A stretch of DNA of 64,000 nt from a virus, in IMG/VR virus record IMGVR_UViG_3300028844_003294, positions 8,153 to 72,152 of that record; one strand, 5' to 3'. The notes beneath the pieces are model-generated. The model saw only the letters and a list, made by a program, of their open reading frames with translations. It ran no database searches and was not told the DNA's origin. Both the position numbers and the translations under genes were made by a program. Within the stretch, counting starts at the first letter, position 1. Each line of letters begins with the position of its first letter. Below, in pieces: positions 6,310 to 47,067 of the stretch.

Positions 6310-7162
6310 AATTCTCTTCTAATTGTTTTATCATATCTTTTGTAAGCCATGTTTTTTCTACATAGTGAAATGGATATGTAATTTGAAAGTTACCAATTTT
6401 AAAATTTTTATAATCTTTGTAATATGTAGGTAATGTTTTTGTCCAGTCGTCTTCTATTATACTAGTAGGTATGTTTTGTACTTTGCTTTTCATATGTATA
6501 AATGTTGGTAACTCTGTCATGTGATCTGCGGTACATTCGTCTTCAATTCCTAATATCTTCATTGCTAAACTAAATGCCACATCGCCACTTAATTTATCTG
6601 GTTTACCTTTTGGCATATATTTAAAATAAAATCTTTCCCAATTTTCAAATATAATTTGTACCATTTTAAAAAATTCTGTAGCCATATCGCTTTTTTTAAA
6701 ATAGAAAAATGCTGTATATACATTAGCCATTTTATTTGCTTTTAAATCTTTTCTATGGAACGTATCGTATATAAGTTCGTTTCTATAAGTGTGTACATTA
6801 GTACATGCCCATATATCTTTATCACTTAGTGTGTCCCACCAATGGCTAACATCAGTTGGAAACAGCATATCAGTATCTAGTATTACTGTTTCATCATAAG
6901 GTGTCATGTAGTAATATTTCCACTTGTTGTTTATCTTCCATTGTGAATCTTGTGCTTCATCTGTCCATGGTATATCTACTATGTGATCAAACACCTTCTT
7001 GTGTTTTGCAGTTACTAGTTTCTTAGTCTTGTTGTCAACACATACTGTTAGATTGCACACAGTCGTCTGTGTTAGTTTTAAATTAAGTGCGAGTGCATAC
7101 GCCTGCTCTAAGTAATCAACTGTGTCGTTGTTTTGTGCTATTACTATATAACCTTTAGACAT
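6296..7162 (-). CDS. Nucleotide-diphospho-sugar transferase (GT8-like)
   Basis: GYIVIAQN...AYALAL...TPYDETVILDTDMLF (DxD); paralogous to 8311-9204. Confidence 0.8.
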   Translation of the reverse strand: MSKGYIVIAQNNDTVDYLEQAYALALNLKLTQTTVCNLTVCVDNKTKKLVTAKHKKVFDHIVDIPWTDEAQDSQWKINNKWKYYYMTPYDETVILDTDMLFPTDVSHWWDTLSDKDIWACTNVHTYRNELIYDTFHRKDLKANKMANVYTAFFYFKKSDMATEFFKMVQIIFENWERFYFKYMPKGKPDKLSGDVAFSLAMKILGIEDECTADHMTELPTFIHMKSKVQNIPTSIIEDDWTKTLPTYYKDYKNFKIGNFQITYPFHYVEKTWLTKDMIKQLEENYARR

Positions 7163-7331
7163 CTATCTTTTTCCATGTTTCTTTAAACAAACAAAAACGG
7201 TCTTGTCCATCATCTGTTTTGTATATAAACTGCATTCCTAACATTTGTATTACAATACCTTCAAACTTACCGTTTAAACTGCATGTATGCTCTATGCGGT
7301 CTCCTAATTCTGGTCTCTTTTGTTTACCCAA
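7155..7331 (-). CDS. Small hypothetical protein (58 aa), missed by the ORF track
   Basis: TTG start with AGAGG upstream; MGKQKRPELGDRIEHTCSLNGKFEGIVIQMLGMQFIYKTDDGQDRFCLFKETWKKIDV; overlaps both neighbouring genes. Confidence 0.7.
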   Translation of the reverse strand: MGKQKRPELGDRIEHTCSLNGKFEGIVIQMLGMQFIYKTDDGQDRFCLFKETWKKIDV

Positions 7332-7551
7332 TTGTAACCTCTGCTTCTGTTTCTATTACAACTCTAGCACCACATGGTAGCAATGGCTTGTCGTTACCAC
7401 CATAAACAATTTTACTAGGCCCGTGTATTTCTACACTATGTCCGTATGTATTACTACGTCCTTCCTTGACTGTAATCACAGGCTCGTTAGTTCCGTGTTT
7501 TTTATTTGCACGAATCTTGTGCATGTTTACATGTATATATTTCTTTGCCAT
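7324..7551 (-). CDS. Conserved-type phage hypothetical protein (75 aa)
   Basis: IHVNMHKIRANKKHGTNEPVITVKEGRSNTY...PLLPCGARVVIET; translationally coupled to the upstream gene. Confidence 0.8.
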   Translation of the reverse strand: MAKKYIHVNMHKIRANKKHGTNEPVITVKEGRSNTYGHSVEIHGPSKIVYGGNDKPLLPCGARVVIETEAEVTIG

Positions 7552-8321
7552 TATATAATGCTCCTTGCATTTAAATGCGGTTCTATAAATTGTTCTGTAT
7601 ATTTTTTATGTCCTTCTTCCGACGGATGTTTATCGTCGTGTTCTTGCAATAAATTTTCCTCTTTACACCACTCATACATTCCTGTGCTTATAAATTTATC
7701 CCAATTGATTAGTTCGTATAACCATTTTATATTTTCATTATTGATGTTAAAGGTTAGACTATCGTCAGTGAACCCACTCATAAAATAATCTATATTATGT
7801 AATTCTAAAAAGTTTTGTGTCCATAATATATTTTCTAATGTTGTTATTTCGCTAAATGTTCTGTTATTAAAATTTTTATACCAGGCAGTATTTAAATGTT
7901 GATATGGAAAATTTTCAATAGTGCTTGTTCCAGGCGATAAATTTATCCAACCACCCATATCTGTATATTGTGTATTAGGATGCAAAACATCTATTGGAGT
8001 TCTAATAAAATTTCTAGGTCCTATAGGTATATTAAATTTTGCAGGACGCCTAGCATCCTCACTATAAAAAGCATGCCTGTCTTGACCACTCCACATAACA
8101 CCAACAATTAAATCTTTGCTTTCTTTTAAAAACTCTGATACACCATATATCAAAGTTCTTACTATCATAGAGTTGCCGGTTGCAAAAAACCCATAGTTGA
8201 TTAAGTTTAAATTATACTTTGTTGCTAGTTGCTGTGGCCAAGCATTAAATTTTTTATCTATACAAGGCAACTCGGTTTGTGTAAAAGAGCAACCAGATGT
8301 AATAAGAGTTTTATGTGACAT
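7551..8321 (-). CDS. SGNH/GDSL-like hydrolase or acyl-esterase
   Basis: N-terminal SGCSFT (block I), N.G..ATGN (block II), C-terminal DKHPSEEGH (DxHP). Confidence 0.75.
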   Translation of the reverse strand: MSHKTLITSGCSFTQTELPCIDKKFNAWPQQLATKYNLNLINYGFFATGNSMIVRTLIYGVSEFLKESKDLIVGVMWSGQDRHAFYSEDARRPAKFNIPIGPRNFIRTPIDVLHPNTQYTDMGGWINLSPGTSTIENFPYQHLNTAWYKNFNNRTFSEITTLENILWTQNFLELHNIDYFMSGFTDDSLTFNINNENIKWLYELINWDKFISTGMYEWCKEENLLQEHDDKHPSEEGHKKYTEQFIEPHLNARSII

Positions 8322-42344: not shown

Positions 42345-43361
42345 ATGGCAAACCTTTTTGAAAGGGCCGCATGTTTTACAGATATACATTACGGCTTAAA
42401 ACAAAATAGTAGACAACATTTAAAAGATTGTCATGACTTTGTTGATTGGTTTATTGCAGAAGCAAAAGCCAGAGACGCAGAGACATGTATCTTTTTGGGC
42501 GACTGGCACCACCATAGAGCAAGTATAAACATTGCTACAATGAATGCCACAATTAAAGACCTTAAAAAATTAAATGACAATTTTGAAAAAGTCTATTTTA
42601 TTACTGGCAACCATGATTTATATTACAGAGAAAAACGTGACTTAAACAGTATTGAGTTTGCTAGAGATTTACCAAACTTTATAATGATCGACGAGCATTT
42701 CTGTGAGGACGGTGTTGCAATTATACCATGGTTAGTTGGCGATGAGCACAAACAACTAAACAAACTAGATTGCAAATACATGTTTGGACATTTCGAGTTA
42801 CCGTACTTTAAAATGAATGCAATGGTAGAAATGCCAGATCATGGTGGTATTACTGCAAACGATTTAAGTAACCCCGAATATGTGTTTAGTGGTCACTTTC
42901 ATAAACGTCAATACAAAAACAATATACATTATATAGGCAATGCTTTCCCACATAACTATGCAGATGCTGGTGACAATGAACGTGGTGCTATGTTTTTAGA
43001 TTGGGGTGGCGAACCTGTATATGTAAATTGGCAAGAATGTCCAAAGTATGTCATGACAGGTCTTAAAGAGTTACTTGATAAAGCAGATGATATACTTGAT
43101 GCTCAAACACATGCTAGAGTAAAACTTGATATTGGTATTAGTTACGAAGAAGCAAACTTTATTAGAGAAACATTTGCAGAAAAATACGGAGTAAGAGAAC
43201 TACAACTTTTACCTGTTAAGGAAGAAGAAGAAATTTTTGACGGTGTTGATATACAGTTTGAAAGTGTAGATCAAATTGTTATACAACAATTAGAAACAAT
43301 CGAAAGCAACTTAGTTGATACCCAAAAACTTATTACTATTTACAGAGAGTTAGAAGTATAA
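42345..43361 (+). CDS. gp47: Recombination endonuclease subunit (gp47/Mre11/SbcD-like)
   Basis: Metallophosphoesterase motifs DIHYG, GDWHH, GNHD, GHFE, SGHFH. Confidence 0.93.
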   Translation: MANLFERAACFTDIHYGLKQNSRQHLKDCHDFVDWFIAEAKARDAETCIFLGDWHHHRASINIATMNATIKDLKKLNDNFEKVYFITGNHDLYYREKRDLNSIEFARDLPNFIMIDEHFCEDGVAIIPWLVGDEHKQLNKLDCKYMFGHFELPYFKMNAMVEMPDHGGITANDLSNPEYVFSGHFHKRQYKNNIHYIGNAFPHNYADAGDNERGAMFLDWGGEPVYVNWQECPKYVMTGLKELLDKADDILDAQTHARVKLDIGISYEEANFIRETFAEKYGVRELQLLPVKEEEEIFDGVDIQFESVDQIVIQQLETIESNLVDTQKLITIYRELEV

Positions 43362-45133
43362 TGCTTACTATAAAAAATGTGAGTGCAAAGAACTTTATGA
43401 GTATTGGTAACAATACTCAAGCAGTAAACTTTGACACAGAATCACTAACATTGGTTTTAGGTCACAATCTAGATCTAGGTGGAGACGGTAGCAGAAATGG
43501 TACTGGTAAAACCACTATTATCAATGCACTCAGTTATGCATTATATGGTGATGCACTAACAAACATTCGTAAAGATAATCTCATAAACAAAACAAACGGC
43601 AAAGGCATGATTGTTACTGTTGATTTTGAAATCAACGGCACCGAGTACAGAATTGAAAGAGGTCGTAGGCCAAATGTATTAAAGTTTTTTGTGAATGGGT
43701 CTGAGGCGGCCGATGATGAACAACAGGGTGATAGCAGAGAAACACAAAAAGACATTGAAAAAATAATTGGTTTCCCTCATAATATGTTTAAGCATTTAAT
43801 TGCACTAAACACATATACCGAACCTTTCCTCAGCATGAAAACAAATGATCAACGTGATATGATTGAGCAGTTGCTAGGAATTACTGAAATTAGTTCAAAA
43901 GCAGAAATACTAAAAGAAAAATTAAAGGAAACTCGAGATAGAATTAAAGAAGAAGAGTTGCGAATACAAGCAGTAAACAATGCCAACGAACGTATTGAAA
44001 AAAATATAAAGGACATTGAATTACGTGGTAGAGCATGGGCTAAGAACAAAGAAGACAAGGTTCAACAATTACAAACTAGTCTAGATGCATTACAACAAAC
44101 TGATATCGATGCAGAATTAGAAAACCATAGACAAGCAACAGAAATAAATCAAAAATATACACAAATACAGAGTGTACAAAATGAGGTTAAACAACTTACA
44201 ACTAGTTTAAAACGCAATGAAGGTAACCTTGCAACACTTGTTAAAAATATTAAACTTGCTAAAGAAGGTATATGTCCTGCGTGTGAACAAAGTACAGCAC
44301 ATTTAGATACGCACGAAGAATACACAACGGATTTAGAAACTAAACTAGCAGAAGAAAACTCTTACAGCAAAGAGCTACAAACTAAATTATCAACATGTGA
44401 AAAGCAATTGATTGACTTAGGCGAGTTACCAGAAACACCAATTACATTTTATAACAACATGGAAGATGCATTACAACACATGCATAACGTTGAGACAATA
44501 AAATCTCAAATAGATGAAAAAATTAAAGAACAAAACCCATACACTGAACAAGTTGAACAACTAAAAGAAAATGGTATGGAAGAAATTAGTTACGACTTAA
44601 TAAACGAACAAACTTATTTAAAAGAACACCAAGAATTTTTACACAAATTGTTGACCAGTAAAGATAGTTTTATTCGTAAGAAAATTATTGATCAGAACTT
44701 GCAGTATCTAAACTATAGGCTAGGACACTATTTAGACAAACTAGGCTTACCACATGATGTTAAGTTTAGCAGTGATCTGAGTGTAGAAATTACAGAGTAT
44801 GGCAGAGATTTAGACTTTGATAATTTAAGCAGAGGTGAACGTAACAGACTTATATTAGGTATGAGTTGGGCGTTCAGAGATATCTACGAAAGCCTAAATA
44901 GACCAATGAATTTGATGTGTATAGATGAACTGGTAGACAGTGGCATGGATACCACTGGTGTTGAAAATGCATTGGCAGTTCTTAAGAAGATGGGTCGAGA
45001 AGCAAATAAGAACGTCTTCCTTATATCACATAAGGAAGAACTGCAAGGTCGTGTAAATAACGTCTTGTATGTAATCAAAGAAGGAGGATTCACTAGTTAT
45101 AGCAATGACATTGAAATCCTCGAAGAGACTTAA
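43361..45133 (+). CDS. gp46: Recombination ATPase subunit (gp46/Rad50/SbcC-like)
   Basis: Walker A NGTGKTT, CPAC zinc hook within the coiled coil, LSRGE signature, Walker B MCIDE, ISH. Confidence 0.95.
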   Translation: MLTIKNVSAKNFMSIGNNTQAVNFDTESLTLVLGHNLDLGGDGSRNGTGKTTIINALSYALYGDALTNIRKDNLINKTNGKGMIVTVDFEINGTEYRIERGRRPNVLKFFVNGSEAADDEQQGDSRETQKDIEKIIGFPHNMFKHLIALNTYTEPFLSMKTNDQRDMIEQLLGITEISSKAEILKEKLKETRDRIKEEELRIQAVNNANERIEKNIKDIELRGRAWAKNKEDKVQQLQTSLDALQQTDIDAELENHRQATEINQKYTQIQSVQNEVKQLTTSLKRNEGNLATLVKNIKLAKEGICPACEQSTAHLDTHEEYTTDLETKLAEENSYSKELQTKLSTCEKQLIDLGELPETPITFYNNMEDALQHMHNVETIKSQIDEKIKEQNPYTEQVEQLKENGMEEISYDLINEQTYLKEHQEFLHKLLTSKDSFIRKKIIDQNLQYLNYRLGHYLDKLGLPHDVKFSSDLSVEITEYGRDLDFDNLSRGERNRLILGMSWAFRDIYESLNRPMNLMCIDELVDSGMDTTGVENALAVLKKMGREANKNVFLISHKEELQGRVNNVLYVIKEGGFTSYSNDIEILEET

Positions 45134-45558
45134 TGAGTGCATGGTACTATAAAGGACAAGTAGTAGACGAATTACCCGAAGGTTGTGAAGCCATTGTTTA
45201 TCTTATAACCAATAATACAAATGGTAAGAAATATGTTGGTAAAAAATTAGCAAAGTTCAAAACAACTAAACCTCCCTTAAAAGGAAAAAAGAATAAACGT
45301 AGAGGCACTAAAGAAAGTGACTGGCGTACTTATTGGGGTAGTTCTGATAATTTAAAAGAAGACGTAGAAAAATTAGGTGAAGATAAATTTACCCGTGAAA
45401 TACTTTACTATTGTCCTAGTAGAGGAGTTGCTAGTTACATAGAGGCAAGAGAACAGTTCGAAAGAAAGGTTTTAGAATCAGACGATTATTACAATGGAAT
45501 TATCAATGTTCGAATAGGCGGTTCAAAAATTTTGCGAGAATCTCTTAAAGAGTTATAA
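45133..45558 (+). CDS. Stand-alone GIY-YIG endonuclease (141 aa)
   Basis: AIVYLITN..NGKKYVGKK...YWGS...E..E....YYN; no C-terminal DNA-binding extension. Confidence 0.85.
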   Translation: MSAWYYKGQVVDELPEGCEAIVYLITNNTNGKKYVGKKLAKFKTTKPPLKGKKNKRRGTKESDWRTYWGSSDNLKEDVEKLGEDKFTREILYYCPSRGVASYIEAREQFERKVLESDDYYNGIINVRIGGSKILRESLKEL

Positions 45559-45564
45559 GTATCA

Positions 45565-45950
45565 GTCAAGGCACATTACAGACACCCAGTCAGACTAACA
45601 TAGGCACACACATAGGTCCATACACCACCCCATCGAGGCACATAATATCGATTTCCTTGACAATCCGTTAAACACGGTGCGAGATTCTGGAATGTATGGC
45701 GTAAATGAGATACATACACACGACAACAGTATTAGATGATGCAGGCAATGAAAAACAGCAACCTGCAAATTTGTATAACTGAACTCTACAAGGTTATACA
45801 GGTTTCCGTAAGTGCGAAAGCAGTGACGGTAGTGTAGGGGAGATAAGGCTTACCACTTCCCGTTTAAACACCCGAGTTAGAGATGGCGATGCTCATCATG
45901 ATGACATCATTTTATTCACCCGGCAACGGGTGAATTATGGCTTAACTTTC
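45565..45950 (+). ncRNA. Putative structured non-coding RNA, family not recognised
   Basis: No ORF; GC-richer than the flanks; serial stems with G-U pairs on the plus strand and two GNRA tetraloops (GAAA 45816-45819, GCAA 45923-45926). Confidence 0.6.
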
Positions 45951-46025
45951 ATGATAACCTTTAATAATAAAAATTCTTCTAACAAAAACTGATATGAACG
46001 AAGTGAATGAAGTTTGCAGTTGGAA

Positions 46026-46040
46026 AGATACGAAGTATCT
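46026..46040. repeat. Mini-hairpin AGATAC-GAA-GTATCT
   Basis: Perfect 6-bp inverted repeat with a cGAAg loop between convergent transcription units. Confidence 0.6.
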
Positions 46041-46041
46041 A

Positions 46042-46560
46042 TTAGAAAGACTGTAAATAAGTTATAGTGTCAGAATAACTTTTTCTTAAGTTTAAACTGA
46101 ATAATTTAGTTAGTTCATTTATATTACTATGATCACAACCATGTTTTTTAGTAACATCTAAAATCATTATTTGTTGAGGGTTTATATATTTGTTATGTGA
46201 GGGATCTTCATGAGTTATGTATACAGGAAAATCATTTAGATTAAACAACACATTACATTTTCTAGTAAATGGGTTTCTCCAACCTGTTAAAAAATCTTCA
46301 TGAAGTTGTACTATTTGATTAGGATTTACATTTTCAAATCCTGCACTATGTTCGGGTAATACTTCTATAGGACTTACTGCAAGTTTTATTTTATCTGCAC
46401 AATTTAAATCTTTAACCATTAAAATATCTTGCGTCATGTCAGGCGTGTCTGCTCTATGCATAAAATACTTTTTATCATCTGGTATAGTAGTAGATATTTC
46501 TTCTTCTAAAGACAATAACAAATCTACATCATAATCAAAATTTAATACAGTACTAAACAT
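46042..46560 (-). CDS. Cupin/2OG-Fe(II) oxygenase-like protein
   Basis: VQLHED...RKCNVLFNL...ILDVTKKHG (HxD...H triad on a beta-rich fold). Confidence 0.55.
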   Translation of the reverse strand: MFSTVLNFDYDVDLLLSLEEEISTTIPDDKKYFMHRADTPDMTQDILMVKDLNCADKIKLAVSPIEVLPEHSAGFENVNPNQIVQLHEDFLTGWRNPFTRKCNVLFNLNDFPVYITHEDPSHNKYINPQQIMILDVTKKHGCDHSNINELTKLFSLNLRKSYSDTITYLQSF

Positions 46561-47039: not shown

Positions 47040-47067
47040 TTGACTTTTCACACTATTTTAGTATAAT
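47040..47067 (+). promoter_or_regulatory. Sigma70-type promoter
   Basis: TTGACT-16 nt-TATAAT; AGGAG RBS follows. Confidence 0.75.

What the first reader, a model, noticed from the sequence alone, without database searches (positions are those of the whole stretch)
45133..46040. Minimal GIY-YIG nuclease followed immediately by a ~400-nt structured non-coding element: candidate nuclease-RNA system
Seen: in an otherwise gap-free genome, about 480 nt after the GIY-YIG stop have no ORF but many stems. These are GTCAAGG/CCTTGAC (45565-71/45655-61); ATCGA/TCGAT (45632-52); CCGT/ACGG (45665-77); ATGTAT/ATACAT (45692-715); TGCAGG/CCTGCA (45740-67); a 14-bp stem 45767-80/45792-805 with three G-U pairs; CCGT..TGC-GAAA-GCA..ACGG (45806-29); GGGGAG/CTTCCC (45837-61); GAGTTAG/TTAACTT (45874-80/45942-48); and ATTCACCCG-GCAA-CGGGTGAAT (45914-35). 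G-U pairs and GNRA loops work only on the plus strand, which argues for an RNA co-transcribed with gp55-47-46-GIY-YIG. Known: GIY-YIG homing endonucleases usually carry extra DNA-binding domains, and this 141-aa protein has none (T4 endonuclease II is a stand-alone precedent); IscB/TnpB use adjacent RNAs. Inference: the RNA may be a scaffold or guide for the nuclease acting with gp46/47, or may prime replication. I do not recognise it as tRNA, tmRNA, RNase P RNA or an intron.
Basis: partly seen in the sequence, partly recalled or inferred. Interest (0 to 1): 0.85.

Follow-up and report, generated by a model that had tools for sequence, protein, structure and literature searches.

The report
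Large knotted phage RNA beside nuclease
The gene-free stretch behind a small DNA-cutting-enzyme gene of this uncultured marine giant phage encodes a real, roughly 450-base, doubly knotted RNA of an uncatalogued family that nearly always travels with that enzyme gene, but nothing shows that the RNA guides the enzyme and its job is unknown.

Summary
Window 45559-46041 has no ORF and is a conserved structured RNA on the + strand.

- **Conservation:** homologues lie in 74 of 80 gp46-anchored IMG/VR loci.
- **Structure:** on a hand-derived structure with two pseudoknots, 95.6% of cells pair, against 31-41% when partners are slid. 42 of 72 pairs change on both sides.
six of ten are confirmed, two are not conserved, and two are displaced by covarying alternatives.
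- **Databases:** Rfam 15 has no match in the window.
- **Linkage:** in an RNA-anchored sample of 75 loci, 70 have the 141-aa SegE-type GIY-YIG gene upstream on the same strand, 4 are cut, and 1 has none.

Several results argue against a guide RNA:
- Sister nucleases sit beside different RNA cores.
- One intact RNA has no nuclease gene in a 98-kb record.
- Cultured-phage homologues have tRNA genes or nothing downstream.
- No complementarity beyond chance was found.

My best reading (0.5) is an RNA gene in its own right, paired with a domesticated Seg-like nuclease as T4 segB is with tRNA genes.

Two 9-nt boxes that always stay identical to each other remain unexplained. This scan found the same family before on other genomes.

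The parts
43361..45133 (+). gp46-like recombination nuclease subunit (SbcC/Rad50-like). Its stop overlaps the GIY-YIG start by one base.
   Evidence: ORF. Pfam AAA_23 E 4.8e-10. Used as the anchor for 80 related loci.
45133..45558 (+). 141-aa protein made of a SegE-type GIY-YIG catalytic domain only, with no separate DNA-binding domain.
   Evidence: Pfam PF19835 E 3.4e-33 over residues 4-124. phrog_447 E 2.2e-36. AlphaFold2 mean pLDDT 86.1. Best fold matches are the I-TevI catalytic domain 1LN0/1MK0, and they are weak (E 0.37, prob 0.89). dN 0.13-0.23 with dS of 1.1 or more against relatives.
45559..45607 (+). Variable 5' leader of the RNA with repeated AGGCAC-type boxes. It aligns poorly between phages.
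   Evidence: Alignment A1 columns 1-104. A leader with such boxes stays next to the RNA even where other ORFs separate it from the GIY-YIG gene.
45608..45700 (+). 5' domain. Helix 45618-23/45694-99 encloses hairpin 45632-36/45648-52 and helix 45653-56/45689-92, which in turn encloses hairpin 45665-68/45674-77.
   Evidence: helices 1-4: 88-100% of cells paired, and 13 of 19 pairs change on both sides.
45709..45733 (+). Nearly invariant hairpin 45709-13/45729-33.
   Evidence: helix 5: 100% paired, and 4 of 5 pairs never vary. There is therefore no covariation evidence for or against it.
45737..45884 (+). Core domain. It holds hairpin 45741-45/45762-66, the long stem 45767-71/45801-05 with 45773-80/45792-99, helix 45827-29/45872-74 with 45832-35/45868-71, and hairpin 45837-42/45856-61. 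Pseudoknot 1 pairs 45784-87 with 45879-82. Pseudoknot 2 pairs 45808-12 with 45849-53.
   Evidence: helices 6-12: 92-100% paired. Pseudoknot 1 has 4 of 4 pairs changed on both sides and is 100% paired. Pseudoknot 2 is 100% paired with 3 of 5 pairs changed on both sides. Covariance model R1 was built on this domain.
45897..45905 (+). Twin box 1 (C-N-TGAT-R-A-S).
   Evidence: Letter N equals that of box 2 in 55 of 55 sequences, and the last letter in 54 of 55.
45915..45934 (+). Hairpin between the twin boxes (45915-22/45927-34).
   Evidence: helix 13: 93% paired, and 4 of 8 pairs change on both sides.
45950..45958 (+). Twin box 2.
   Evidence: The same box-hairpin-box module occurs in sequence clusters A, B and E and in L139.
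45977..46040 (+). 3' domain. Probable helices 45977-83/46019-25 and 45986-90/46011-15, then terminal hairpin 46026-31/46035-40 with a GAAG loop.
   Evidence: The terminal hairpin is 100% paired, and 4 of 6 pairs change on both sides. The two other helices are 70% and 53% paired in a poorly aligned region, which is inconclusive.
46042..46560 (-). Convergent 172-aa gene that bounds the RNA on its 3' side.
   Evidence: ORF. A weak DUF7209 match below the cut-off. Conserved next to the RNA in close relatives.

Best explanation
Window 45559-46041 is the gene of a large (about 430-480 nt), multi-domain, doubly pseudoknotted non-coding RNA. It is read from the + strand, probably on the same transcript as gp46 and the GIY-YIG gene.

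The RNA is a gene in its own right. Its neighbour is a domesticated Seg-type GIY-YIG nuclease that acts on DNA, not through the RNA. By cutting near its own locus in co-infecting relatives, or in sister genomes, the nuclease would drive gene conversion, exchange or amplification of the block that holds itself and the RNA gene. T4/T6 SegB does this for the adjacent tRNA genes.

The RNA would act in trans during infection. Its box-hairpin-box module would bind one partner twice.

**Shown:** the RNA, its structure, its strand and its linkage to the nuclease gene.

**Inferred:** nuclease activity, homing or amplification, co-transcription and a trans action.
For: **The RNA is real**
- 74 of 80 gp46-anchored loci hold a homologue at 69-99% identity.
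- There is no shared ORF.
- 95.6% of cells pair, against 31-41% in slid controls. 42 of 72 pairs change on both sides, against 9-20. 0 of 500 shuffles reach this.
- G-U pairs fix the strand.

**Linkage to the nuclease gene**
- 70 of 75 RNA-anchored loci have the gene upstream and co-oriented: 56 within 64 nt, 12 at 560-1136 nt, and 2 at about 1.5 kb. Four are cut and 1 has none.
- The pair is inverted as a unit in 23 loci.

**Block exchange**
- Against L005 and L006 the flanks are 90-98% identical. The nuclease gene plus the 5' two thirds of the RNA fall to 65-79%.
- For gp46, dS is 0.52. For the nuclease gene, dS is 1.35-1.42.

**The RNA is independent of the nuclease**
- L210 has an intact RNA (123.9 bits, with compensated helices). 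Its 97,926-nt record has no nuclease gene.
- Sister nucleases sit beside RNA cores of type A or type B.

**The protein is functional**
- dN is 0.13-0.23 while dS is 1.1 or more, often saturated.
- It has a GIY-YIG domain.

**Precedent**
- Homologues in phages Syn33 and Bellamy lie directly before tRNA genes.
- SegB homologues are significantly co-located with tRNA genes and amplify them (PMC13096335, abstract and section 10).

**RNA libraries**
- Contigs at 99% identity or more from three studies cover 45421-45677, 45699-45862 and 45701-46002.
Against: - The nuclease gene is nearly fixed (70 of 71 evaluable loci). Selfish homing genes are usually sporadic.
- The protein lacks the C-terminal DNA-binding domain of SegB and SegE, so how it would find a site is open.
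- No cleavage site, homing event or amplification was seen.
- The L210 record is only about 27% complete by CheckV, so its nuclease gene may lie elsewhere.
- The RNA-library contigs are shallow, and DNA carry-over is not excluded.
- All loci come from one lineage of uncultured phages, so linkage partly reflects shared descent.
- Nothing indicates what the RNA does.
Confidence: 0.5

Rival explanations
1. Ribonucleoprotein. The RNA is a cofactor of the minimal GIY-YIG nuclease (scaffold, specificity factor, guide or inhibitor) and stands in for the missing DNA-binding domain.
For: - The protein is the catalytic domain only (Pfam covers residues 4-124 of 141).
- It carries an invariant basic insert.
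- Linkage is near-obligate and co-oriented (70 of 71 evaluable loci).
- The pair is inverted as a unit.
- The nuclease gene and the RNA's 5' and core parts were exchanged together against L005 and L006.
- GIY-anchored loci of clusters A, B and E (42 of 75 clustered) carry related RNAs.
Against: - Sister nucleases sit next to different RNA cores.
- Nucleases about 80% identical (clusters D, F, H) have other or no large elements downstream.
- FelixO1 and phiM12 homologues have only 21-28 nt to the next gene.
- L210 has the RNA without the gene.
- No guide-like match was found beyond chance.
Confidence: 0.2
2. Cis-acting RNA. The element is a long structured 3' untranslated region that stabilises, processes or regulates the gp55-47-46-nuclease transcript, or shields it from the convergent gene.
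For: - It lies directly 3' of the nuclease stop codon in 56 of 75 loci.
- One RNA-library contig bridges the stop codon (45421-45677).
- The genes are convergent.
- No terminator-like site was found between the ORF and the RNA.
Against: - About 450 nt with two pseudoknots and long invariant single-stranded runs is far more than stabilisers need.
- In 14 loci other ORFs of 0.56-1.5 kb lie between the nuclease gene and the RNA.
- L210 has the RNA behind minus-strand genes.
Confidence: 0.1
3. Catalytic or mobile RNA. The element is a new ribozyme, or an RNA that helps the cassette spread.
For: - Its size, pseudoknots and invariant unpaired stretches are typical of ribozymes.
- It lies next to a homing-type nuclease gene.
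- It behaves as a block in exchange.
Against: - It has no match to any Rfam ribozyme or intron model, even at E up to 10.
- It does not interrupt any gene.
- No splice-site-like or cleavage-site features were recognised.
Confidence: 0.1
4. DNA-level element. The conserved sequence acts as DNA, as a replication origin, recombination hotspot or nuclease target. The twin boxes are protein-binding repeats kept alike by gene conversion.
For: - The twin boxes covary by identity, not by complementarity (55 of 55). Repeats bound by one protein, or homogenised as DNA, would behave this way.
- A recombination boundary lies near 45850-45950.
Against: Compensatory changes in 42 of 72 pairs, conserved G-U pairs that would be A-C on the other strand, and two pseudoknots all point to a folded single strand of defined polarity.
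Confidence: 0.05

Closest known systems
T4/T6 segB with the phage tRNA gene cluster (PMC2330249, search listing and start of abstract only; PMC13096335, abstract and section 10 read)
   Same: A Seg-type GIY-YIG nuclease gene sits beside genes for stable structured RNAs and is inherited with them. Homologues of the window's protein in cyanophages Syn33 and Bellamy lie directly before tRNA genes.
   Different: The neighbour here is a single RNA of about 450 nt and not a set of tRNAs. The protein has no C-terminal DNA-binding domain. The gene is nearly fixed rather than sporadic. Cleavage, homing and amplification were not tested.
GOLLD, ROOL and OLE: large ornate RNAs of bacteria and phages (recalled; their Rfam models are in the library searched)
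   Same: Several hundred nucleotides long, with many helices, pseudoknots and invariant loops. Phage-borne, with unknown function.
   Different: No match to any of them. It has a different architecture with a twin-box module, and it is tightly linked to one protein gene.
Polynucleobacter-1 RNA motif, Rfam RF01718 (PMC2864571; only its row in the table of motifs was seen)
   Same: In locus L139 the first 147 nt behind the same nuclease gene match RF01718 over its full length (62.2 bits against a cut-off of 37). They are followed by the same box-hairpin-box and 3' modules.
   Different: The window's own RNA has no RF01718 match, even at E up to 10. Its 5' domain has another fold. RF01718 describes 141 nt, not the whole RNA.
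OMEGA systems (IscB with omega RNA, TnpB with reRNA), as in the review PMC13565253 (search listing only)
   Same: A small nuclease gene with a large structured RNA encoded beside it.
   Different: The nuclease is GIY-YIG, not RuvC or HNH. There are no transposon ends. No guide segment was found. There is no HEARO or other Rfam match.

Membership tests
Any Rfam 15 family | Score at or above the family's gathering cut-off | tested here: not met
   There were 0 matches in the whole window. At E up to 10 on 45400-46200 there were four snoRNA-like matches, all far below cut-off; the best scored 22.3 bits against 44.
Polynucleobacter-1 RNA (RF01718) | Match to the RF01718 covariance model | tested here: not met
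   The window has no match at E up to 10. A relative, L139, does match at 62.2 bits.
tRNA / tmRNA | Cloverleaf or tRNA-like domain with tag reading frame | tested here: not met
   ARAGORN finds no gene in the window.
Group I / group II intron | Match to the intron models, and interruption of a host gene | tested here: not met
   No Rfam match. gp46 and the nuclease ORF are intact, and the element lies between genes.
Seg-type free-standing homing endonuclease | GIY-YIG catalytic domain of the Seg type | tested here: met
   PF19835 E 3.4e-33. The nearest folds are the I-TevI catalytic domain, although the matches are weak.
Seg-type free-standing homing endonuclease | C-terminal DNA-binding domain | tested here: not met
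   The protein has 141 aa, and the catalytic-domain profile covers residues 4-124. The model shows only short helices after residue 110.
Seg-type free-standing homing endonuclease | Sporadic presence among related genomes | tested here: not met
   The gene is present in 70 of 71 evaluable RNA-anchored loci and in every uncut gp46-anchored locus that holds the RNA.
Seg-type free-standing homing endonuclease | Site-specific cleavage of alleles that lack the gene, followed by gene conversion | not testable with these tools
   Only indirect evidence: a trough of identity centred on the gene against L005 and L006.
RNA-guided nuclease (OMEGA/CRISPR-like) | Variable guide segment complementary to a target | tested here: inconclusive
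   No match to the rest of the window beyond chance: 12 nt, where shuffles give 12-16. Host and rival-phage genomes could not be searched.
RNA-guided nuclease (OMEGA/CRISPR-like) | Protein and RNA co-evolve and are never separated | tested here: not met
   The nuclease tree mixes RNA core types; labels need 23 changes where 8 is the minimum. L210 has the RNA without the gene.

The most novel reading that the evidence does not exclude
The twin-box RNA is the working partner of the domain-only GIY-YIG enzyme. In this reading the RNA replaces the missing DNA-binding domain. It either aims the nuclease at DNA or holds it inactive until infection of a rival-occupied cell. That would be the first RNA-dependent GIY-YIG nuclease. 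The swappable 5' and core domains would then set specificity, and the twin-box 3' module would be the common protein-binding platform.
Probability: 0.15. Interest if true: 0.95.

Novelty: new variant of a known kind. Interest (0 to 1): 0.75.

Why it matters
Large RNAs with this degree of conserved tertiary structure are rare, and most known classes turned out to be ribozymes or the cores of major machines. This one is widespread in abundant uncultured marine giant phages and is absent from Rfam 15. I found no description of it in two full-text searches.

It carries an unusual signal: two boxes that change over evolution yet always stay identical to each other. Its tight link to a minimal GIY-YIG nuclease gives a direct experimental handle.

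If the segB-like reading holds, the known nuclease-tRNA partnership extends to other RNA genes. If the ribonucleoprotein reading holds, it would be a new kind of RNA-dependent nuclease.

The RNA also gives context to the orphan Rfam motif RF01718, which forms one variant's 5' domain.

Tried and rejected
- **Single-sequence folding** gave no signal: z is -1.51 on the + strand and +0.05 on the - strand.
- **blastn of the gap against GenBank phages** found nothing better than E = 2.
- **Coding reading rejected:** stop-free stretches of 41-124 codons fall in different frames and strands among the 55 homologues.
- **Guide or antisense reading:** the longest exact match to the rest of the window is 12 nt, and shuffles give 12-16.
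- **Sequence search of solved structures** with the protein found nothing relevant.
- **Foldseek** gave no match at E of 0.001 or better. The I-TevI catalytic domain ranks first.
- **A covariance model of the whole core** (348 positions) could not be calibrated in time. I built model R1 on 141 positions instead.
None of the 80 listed loci matched R1.
- **nhmmer** found no homologue in the fetched loci of PA5oct, Syn33, Bellamy, FelixO1, phiM12, Melnitz or L326.
- **Metatranscriptome contigs** cover parts of the RNA at low depth. They cannot show strand, ends or level, and the parts without cover mean nothing.
- **Helices 45977-83/46019-25 and 45986-90/46011-15** remain inconclusive because the alignment is poor there.
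- **Papers:** PMC9602691 (passages) names only known Rfam RNAs. PMC10690425 (passages) lists over ten thousand candidate viral RNAs from IMG/VR. The supplementary data of PMC13096335 may list this nuclease family.
Full report
**What is there.** The window comes from a 72-kb IMG/VR virus record that CheckV rates about 20% complete. The nearest cultured gp46 is that of Pseudomonas jumbo phage PA5oct, at 52% identity. PA5oct shares the gp55-gp47-gp46 order but has neither the nuclease gene nor the RNA after gp46.

In the window, gp47 (42345-43361), gp46 (43361-45133) and a 141-aa ORF (45133-45558) follow one another on the + strand. The next ORF (46042-46560) converges on the minus strand. The 483 nt between hold only ORFs of 33-57 aa. 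GC there is 0.40-0.425, against 0.26-0.39 beside it.

**The protein.**
- It matches Pfam PF19835 (SegE GIY-YIG domain, E 3.4e-33, residues 4-124) and phrog_447 (E 2.2e-36). That family is labelled 'NAD synthetase' in many records, a name that no domain match supports.
- The AlphaFold2 model is confident (pLDDT 86.1). Its best fold matches are the I-TevI catalytic domain, but they are weak (E 0.37).
- Relatives at 71-83% identity share long invariant runs, including a basic insert.
- Against relatives, dN is 0.13-0.23 while dS is 1.1 or more, often saturated. The protein is therefore under purifying selection.
- tblastn finds homologues in 775 GenBank phage records.

**The RNA is real.** Single-sequence folding is not significant, and GenBank phages hold nothing like the gap. 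Related uncultured phages do:
- blastn finds the gap in 74 of 80 loci fetched by gp46, at 69-99% identity and mostly over its full length.
- The six loci without a match end inside or just after the nuclease gene, or just after gp46.
- The 55 distinct complete homologues share no open frame.
- RNAalifold predicts 56 pairs, and 31 of them have compensatory changes.

I derived a fuller structure from covarying columns. It has thirteen helices, two of them pseudoknots. Counted on alignment A2 (41 distinct rows):

| Measure | Structure | Control |
|---|---|---|
| Cells paired | 95.6% | 31-41% with partners slid |
| Pairs changed on both sides | 42 of 72 | 9-20 with partners slid |
| Shuffles reaching the observed values | 0 of 500 on four of five measures, 1 of 500 on the fifth | n/a |

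(All.) Pseudoknot 1 (45784-87 with 45879-82) has 4 of 4 pairs changed on both sides. Pseudoknot 2 (45808-12 with 45849-53) is 100% paired, with 3 of 5 pairs changed on both sides. The terminal hairpin 46026-40 is 100% paired, with 4 of 6 pairs changed on both sides. Invariant G-U pairs put the RNA on the + strand.

Six of the ten are confirmed. GTCAAGG/CCTTGAC (51% paired) and GAGTTAG/TTAACTT (60% paired) are not conserved. ATGTAT/ATACAT and CCGT..ACGG (45806-29) are displaced by covarying alternatives.

**Known families.**
- Rfam 15 gives no match in the window at gathering scores. At E up to 10 it gives only snoRNA-like noise.
- ARAGORN finds no tRNA or tmRNA.
- In a relative, L139, the first 147 nt behind the same nuclease gene are a full-length match to the orphan motif Polynucleobacter-1 (RF01718; 62.2 bits against a cut-off of 37). 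The same box-hairpin-box and 3' modules follow. The family is therefore modular, and one variant's 5' domain is already in Rfam. The window's own 5' domain is not.

**Twin boxes.**
- Two 9-nt boxes (45897-905 and 45950-958) flank hairpin 45915-34.
- Their variable second letter is the same in both boxes in 55 of 55 sequences (A/A 39, G/G 9, T/T 7). Their last letter is the same in 54 of 55.
- No third column is complementary to them.
- This is covariation by identity, which a helix does not explain. I leave it unexplained (note 4).
- A motif search finds the module in 18 of 21 cluster A loci, 9 of 15 cluster B loci and 4 of 6 cluster E loci, and in none of the other 33. That search required equal second letters, so it does not add to the identity count.

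**Linkage with the nuclease gene.**
- *gp46-anchored sample:* every uncut locus with the RNA has the gene directly upstream on the same strand. In 23 loci the pair is inverted as a unit relative to gp46.
- *RNA-anchored sample* (pattern scan, 75 new loci): 68 have the gene upstream within 1.2 kb (56 within 64 nt, 12 at 560-1136 nt). Two have it about 1.5 kb upstream with two ORFs between. Four are cut. One, L210, has none.
- *L210:* its RNA is intact, at 123.9 bits with compensated helices. Its 97,926-nt record, about 27% complete, holds no homologue of the gene.
- *Nuclease-anchored sample* (80 loci at 71-85% identity): model R1 finds the core in 25 loci, and a sequence profile finds parts of the RNA in 33 of 81. 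The downstream regions fall into sequence clusters. A, B and E share modules; C, D, F, G, H and singletons differ or lack a large element.
- *Cultured phages:* in Syn33 and Bellamy the homologue lies after nrdB and directly before tRNA genes. In FelixO1 and phiM12 the next gene follows within 21-28 nt. In Melnitz small ORFs follow.
- *tRNA genes nearby:* a tRNA-Thr lies 1.55-2.2 kb downstream in 6 of 10 cluster D and F loci. The other 30 loci scanned have none.

**History of the block.** Against the close relatives L005 and L006 the flanks are 90-98% identical. Identity falls to 78% at the start of the nuclease gene and to 65-68% at its end and in the RNA's 5' domain. It is 77-79% in the core and recovers to 85-91% by 45850-45950, and to 94-98% from 46000. 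Over the same pairs, gp46 has dS of 0.52 and the nuclease gene has dS of 1.35-1.42. The gene and the 5' two thirds of the RNA were therefore exchanged as a block.

The nuclease tree nevertheless mixes RNA core types. Labels need 23 changes where 8 is the minimum and shuffles average 48.1. Well-supported sister pairs such as L117 (type A) and L116 (type B) carry different cores. Breakpoints therefore also fall between the gene and the RNA.

**Expression.** Twenty metatranscriptome runs from 15 studies hold part of the stretch. I laid four of them. Contigs at 99% identity or more from three studies cover 45015-45331, 45453-45603, 45421-45677 (which bridges the stop codon), 45699-45862 and 45701-46002. 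Depth is low. Contigs cannot show strand, ends or level, and DNA carry-over is possible. This is weak support for transcription and nothing more.

**Reading.** A structured RNA is shown, and so is a close genetic tie to the nuclease gene. A guide or scaffold role is not shown. Four results lower it:
- the mixed tree;
- L210;
- the cultured-phage homologues that lack the RNA;
- the absence of complementarity beyond chance.

The closest known arrangement is segB with the T-even tRNA genes. SegB is a GIY-YIG homing nuclease that favours inheritance of the tRNA region (PMC2330249, listing and start of abstract only). It also amplifies adjacent tRNA genes, and its homologues are enriched next to tRNA genes (PMC13096335, abstract and section 10).

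I therefore rank the readings as follows:

| Reading | Confidence |
|---|---|
| RNA gene with a domesticated Seg-like nuclease neighbour | 0.5 |
| Ribonucleoprotein | 0.2 |
| Cis-acting 3' region | 0.1 |
| Ribozyme or mobile RNA | 0.1 |
| DNA-level element | 0.05 |

**Novelty.** The window's RNA is absent from Rfam 15. Two full-text searches found no description of it. PMC10690425 lists thousands of candidate viral RNAs in supplements that I could not open.

Earlier agents of this scan described the same 'twin-box' RNA on other genomes. My results agree with them on the RNA, the two pseudoknots and the boxes. They differ from one note that says the RNA is never found without the nuclease gene.

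Noticed in passing
L139:2942-3088: In a related phage contig the orphan Rfam motif Polynucleobacter-1 (RF01718) forms the 5' domain of a larger twin-box RNA, directly behind the same GIY-YIG gene. This gives that motif a genomic context.
   Followed up: partly
L104, L105, L108, L109, L121, L123, L084, L086, L094, L131 (first ~300 nt after the GIY-YIG stop): Clusters D and F carry a different conserved gene-free element of about 250-300 nt behind the nuclease gene. It is followed by a sigma-70-like TTGAC..TATAAT site. In 6 of these 10 loci a tRNA-Thr lies 1.55-2.2 kb downstream.
   Followed up: partly
window 45133-45558 and GenBank homologues: This protein family (phrog_447) is labelled 'NAD synthetase' in many phage records, including FelixO1, Syn33 and Bellamy. 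Here it matches only GIY-YIG nuclease profiles, so the label looks like a legacy misannotation.
   Followed up: partly
window 45100-45950 against L005/L006: A sharp trough of identity (65-79%) lies within flanks of 90-98%. It marks a recombination block that starts at the gp46/nuclease junction and ends inside the RNA near the first twin box.
   Followed up: yes
L174:4297-5756 and L214:4122-5581; about 560-nt inserts in L175, L188, L204, L206 and others: Extra ORFs (343 aa plus 142 aa, or one of about 170 aa) are inserted between the nuclease gene and the RNA in some phages. The RNA's leader with its AGGCAC-type boxes stays attached to the RNA.
   Followed up: partly
window 47040-47067: A strong sigma-70-like promoter match (TTGACT, 16 nt, TATAAT; 11 of 12) lies upstream of the 819-aa FG-GAP repeat protein gene.
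   Followed up: no
L389 (PA5oct) 6517-8031: In PA5oct, the nearest cultured relative by gp46, about 1.5 kb downstream of the gp46 region carries only tiny annotated ORFs of 38-50 aa. The sequence profile of this RNA finds nothing there.
   Followed up: partly
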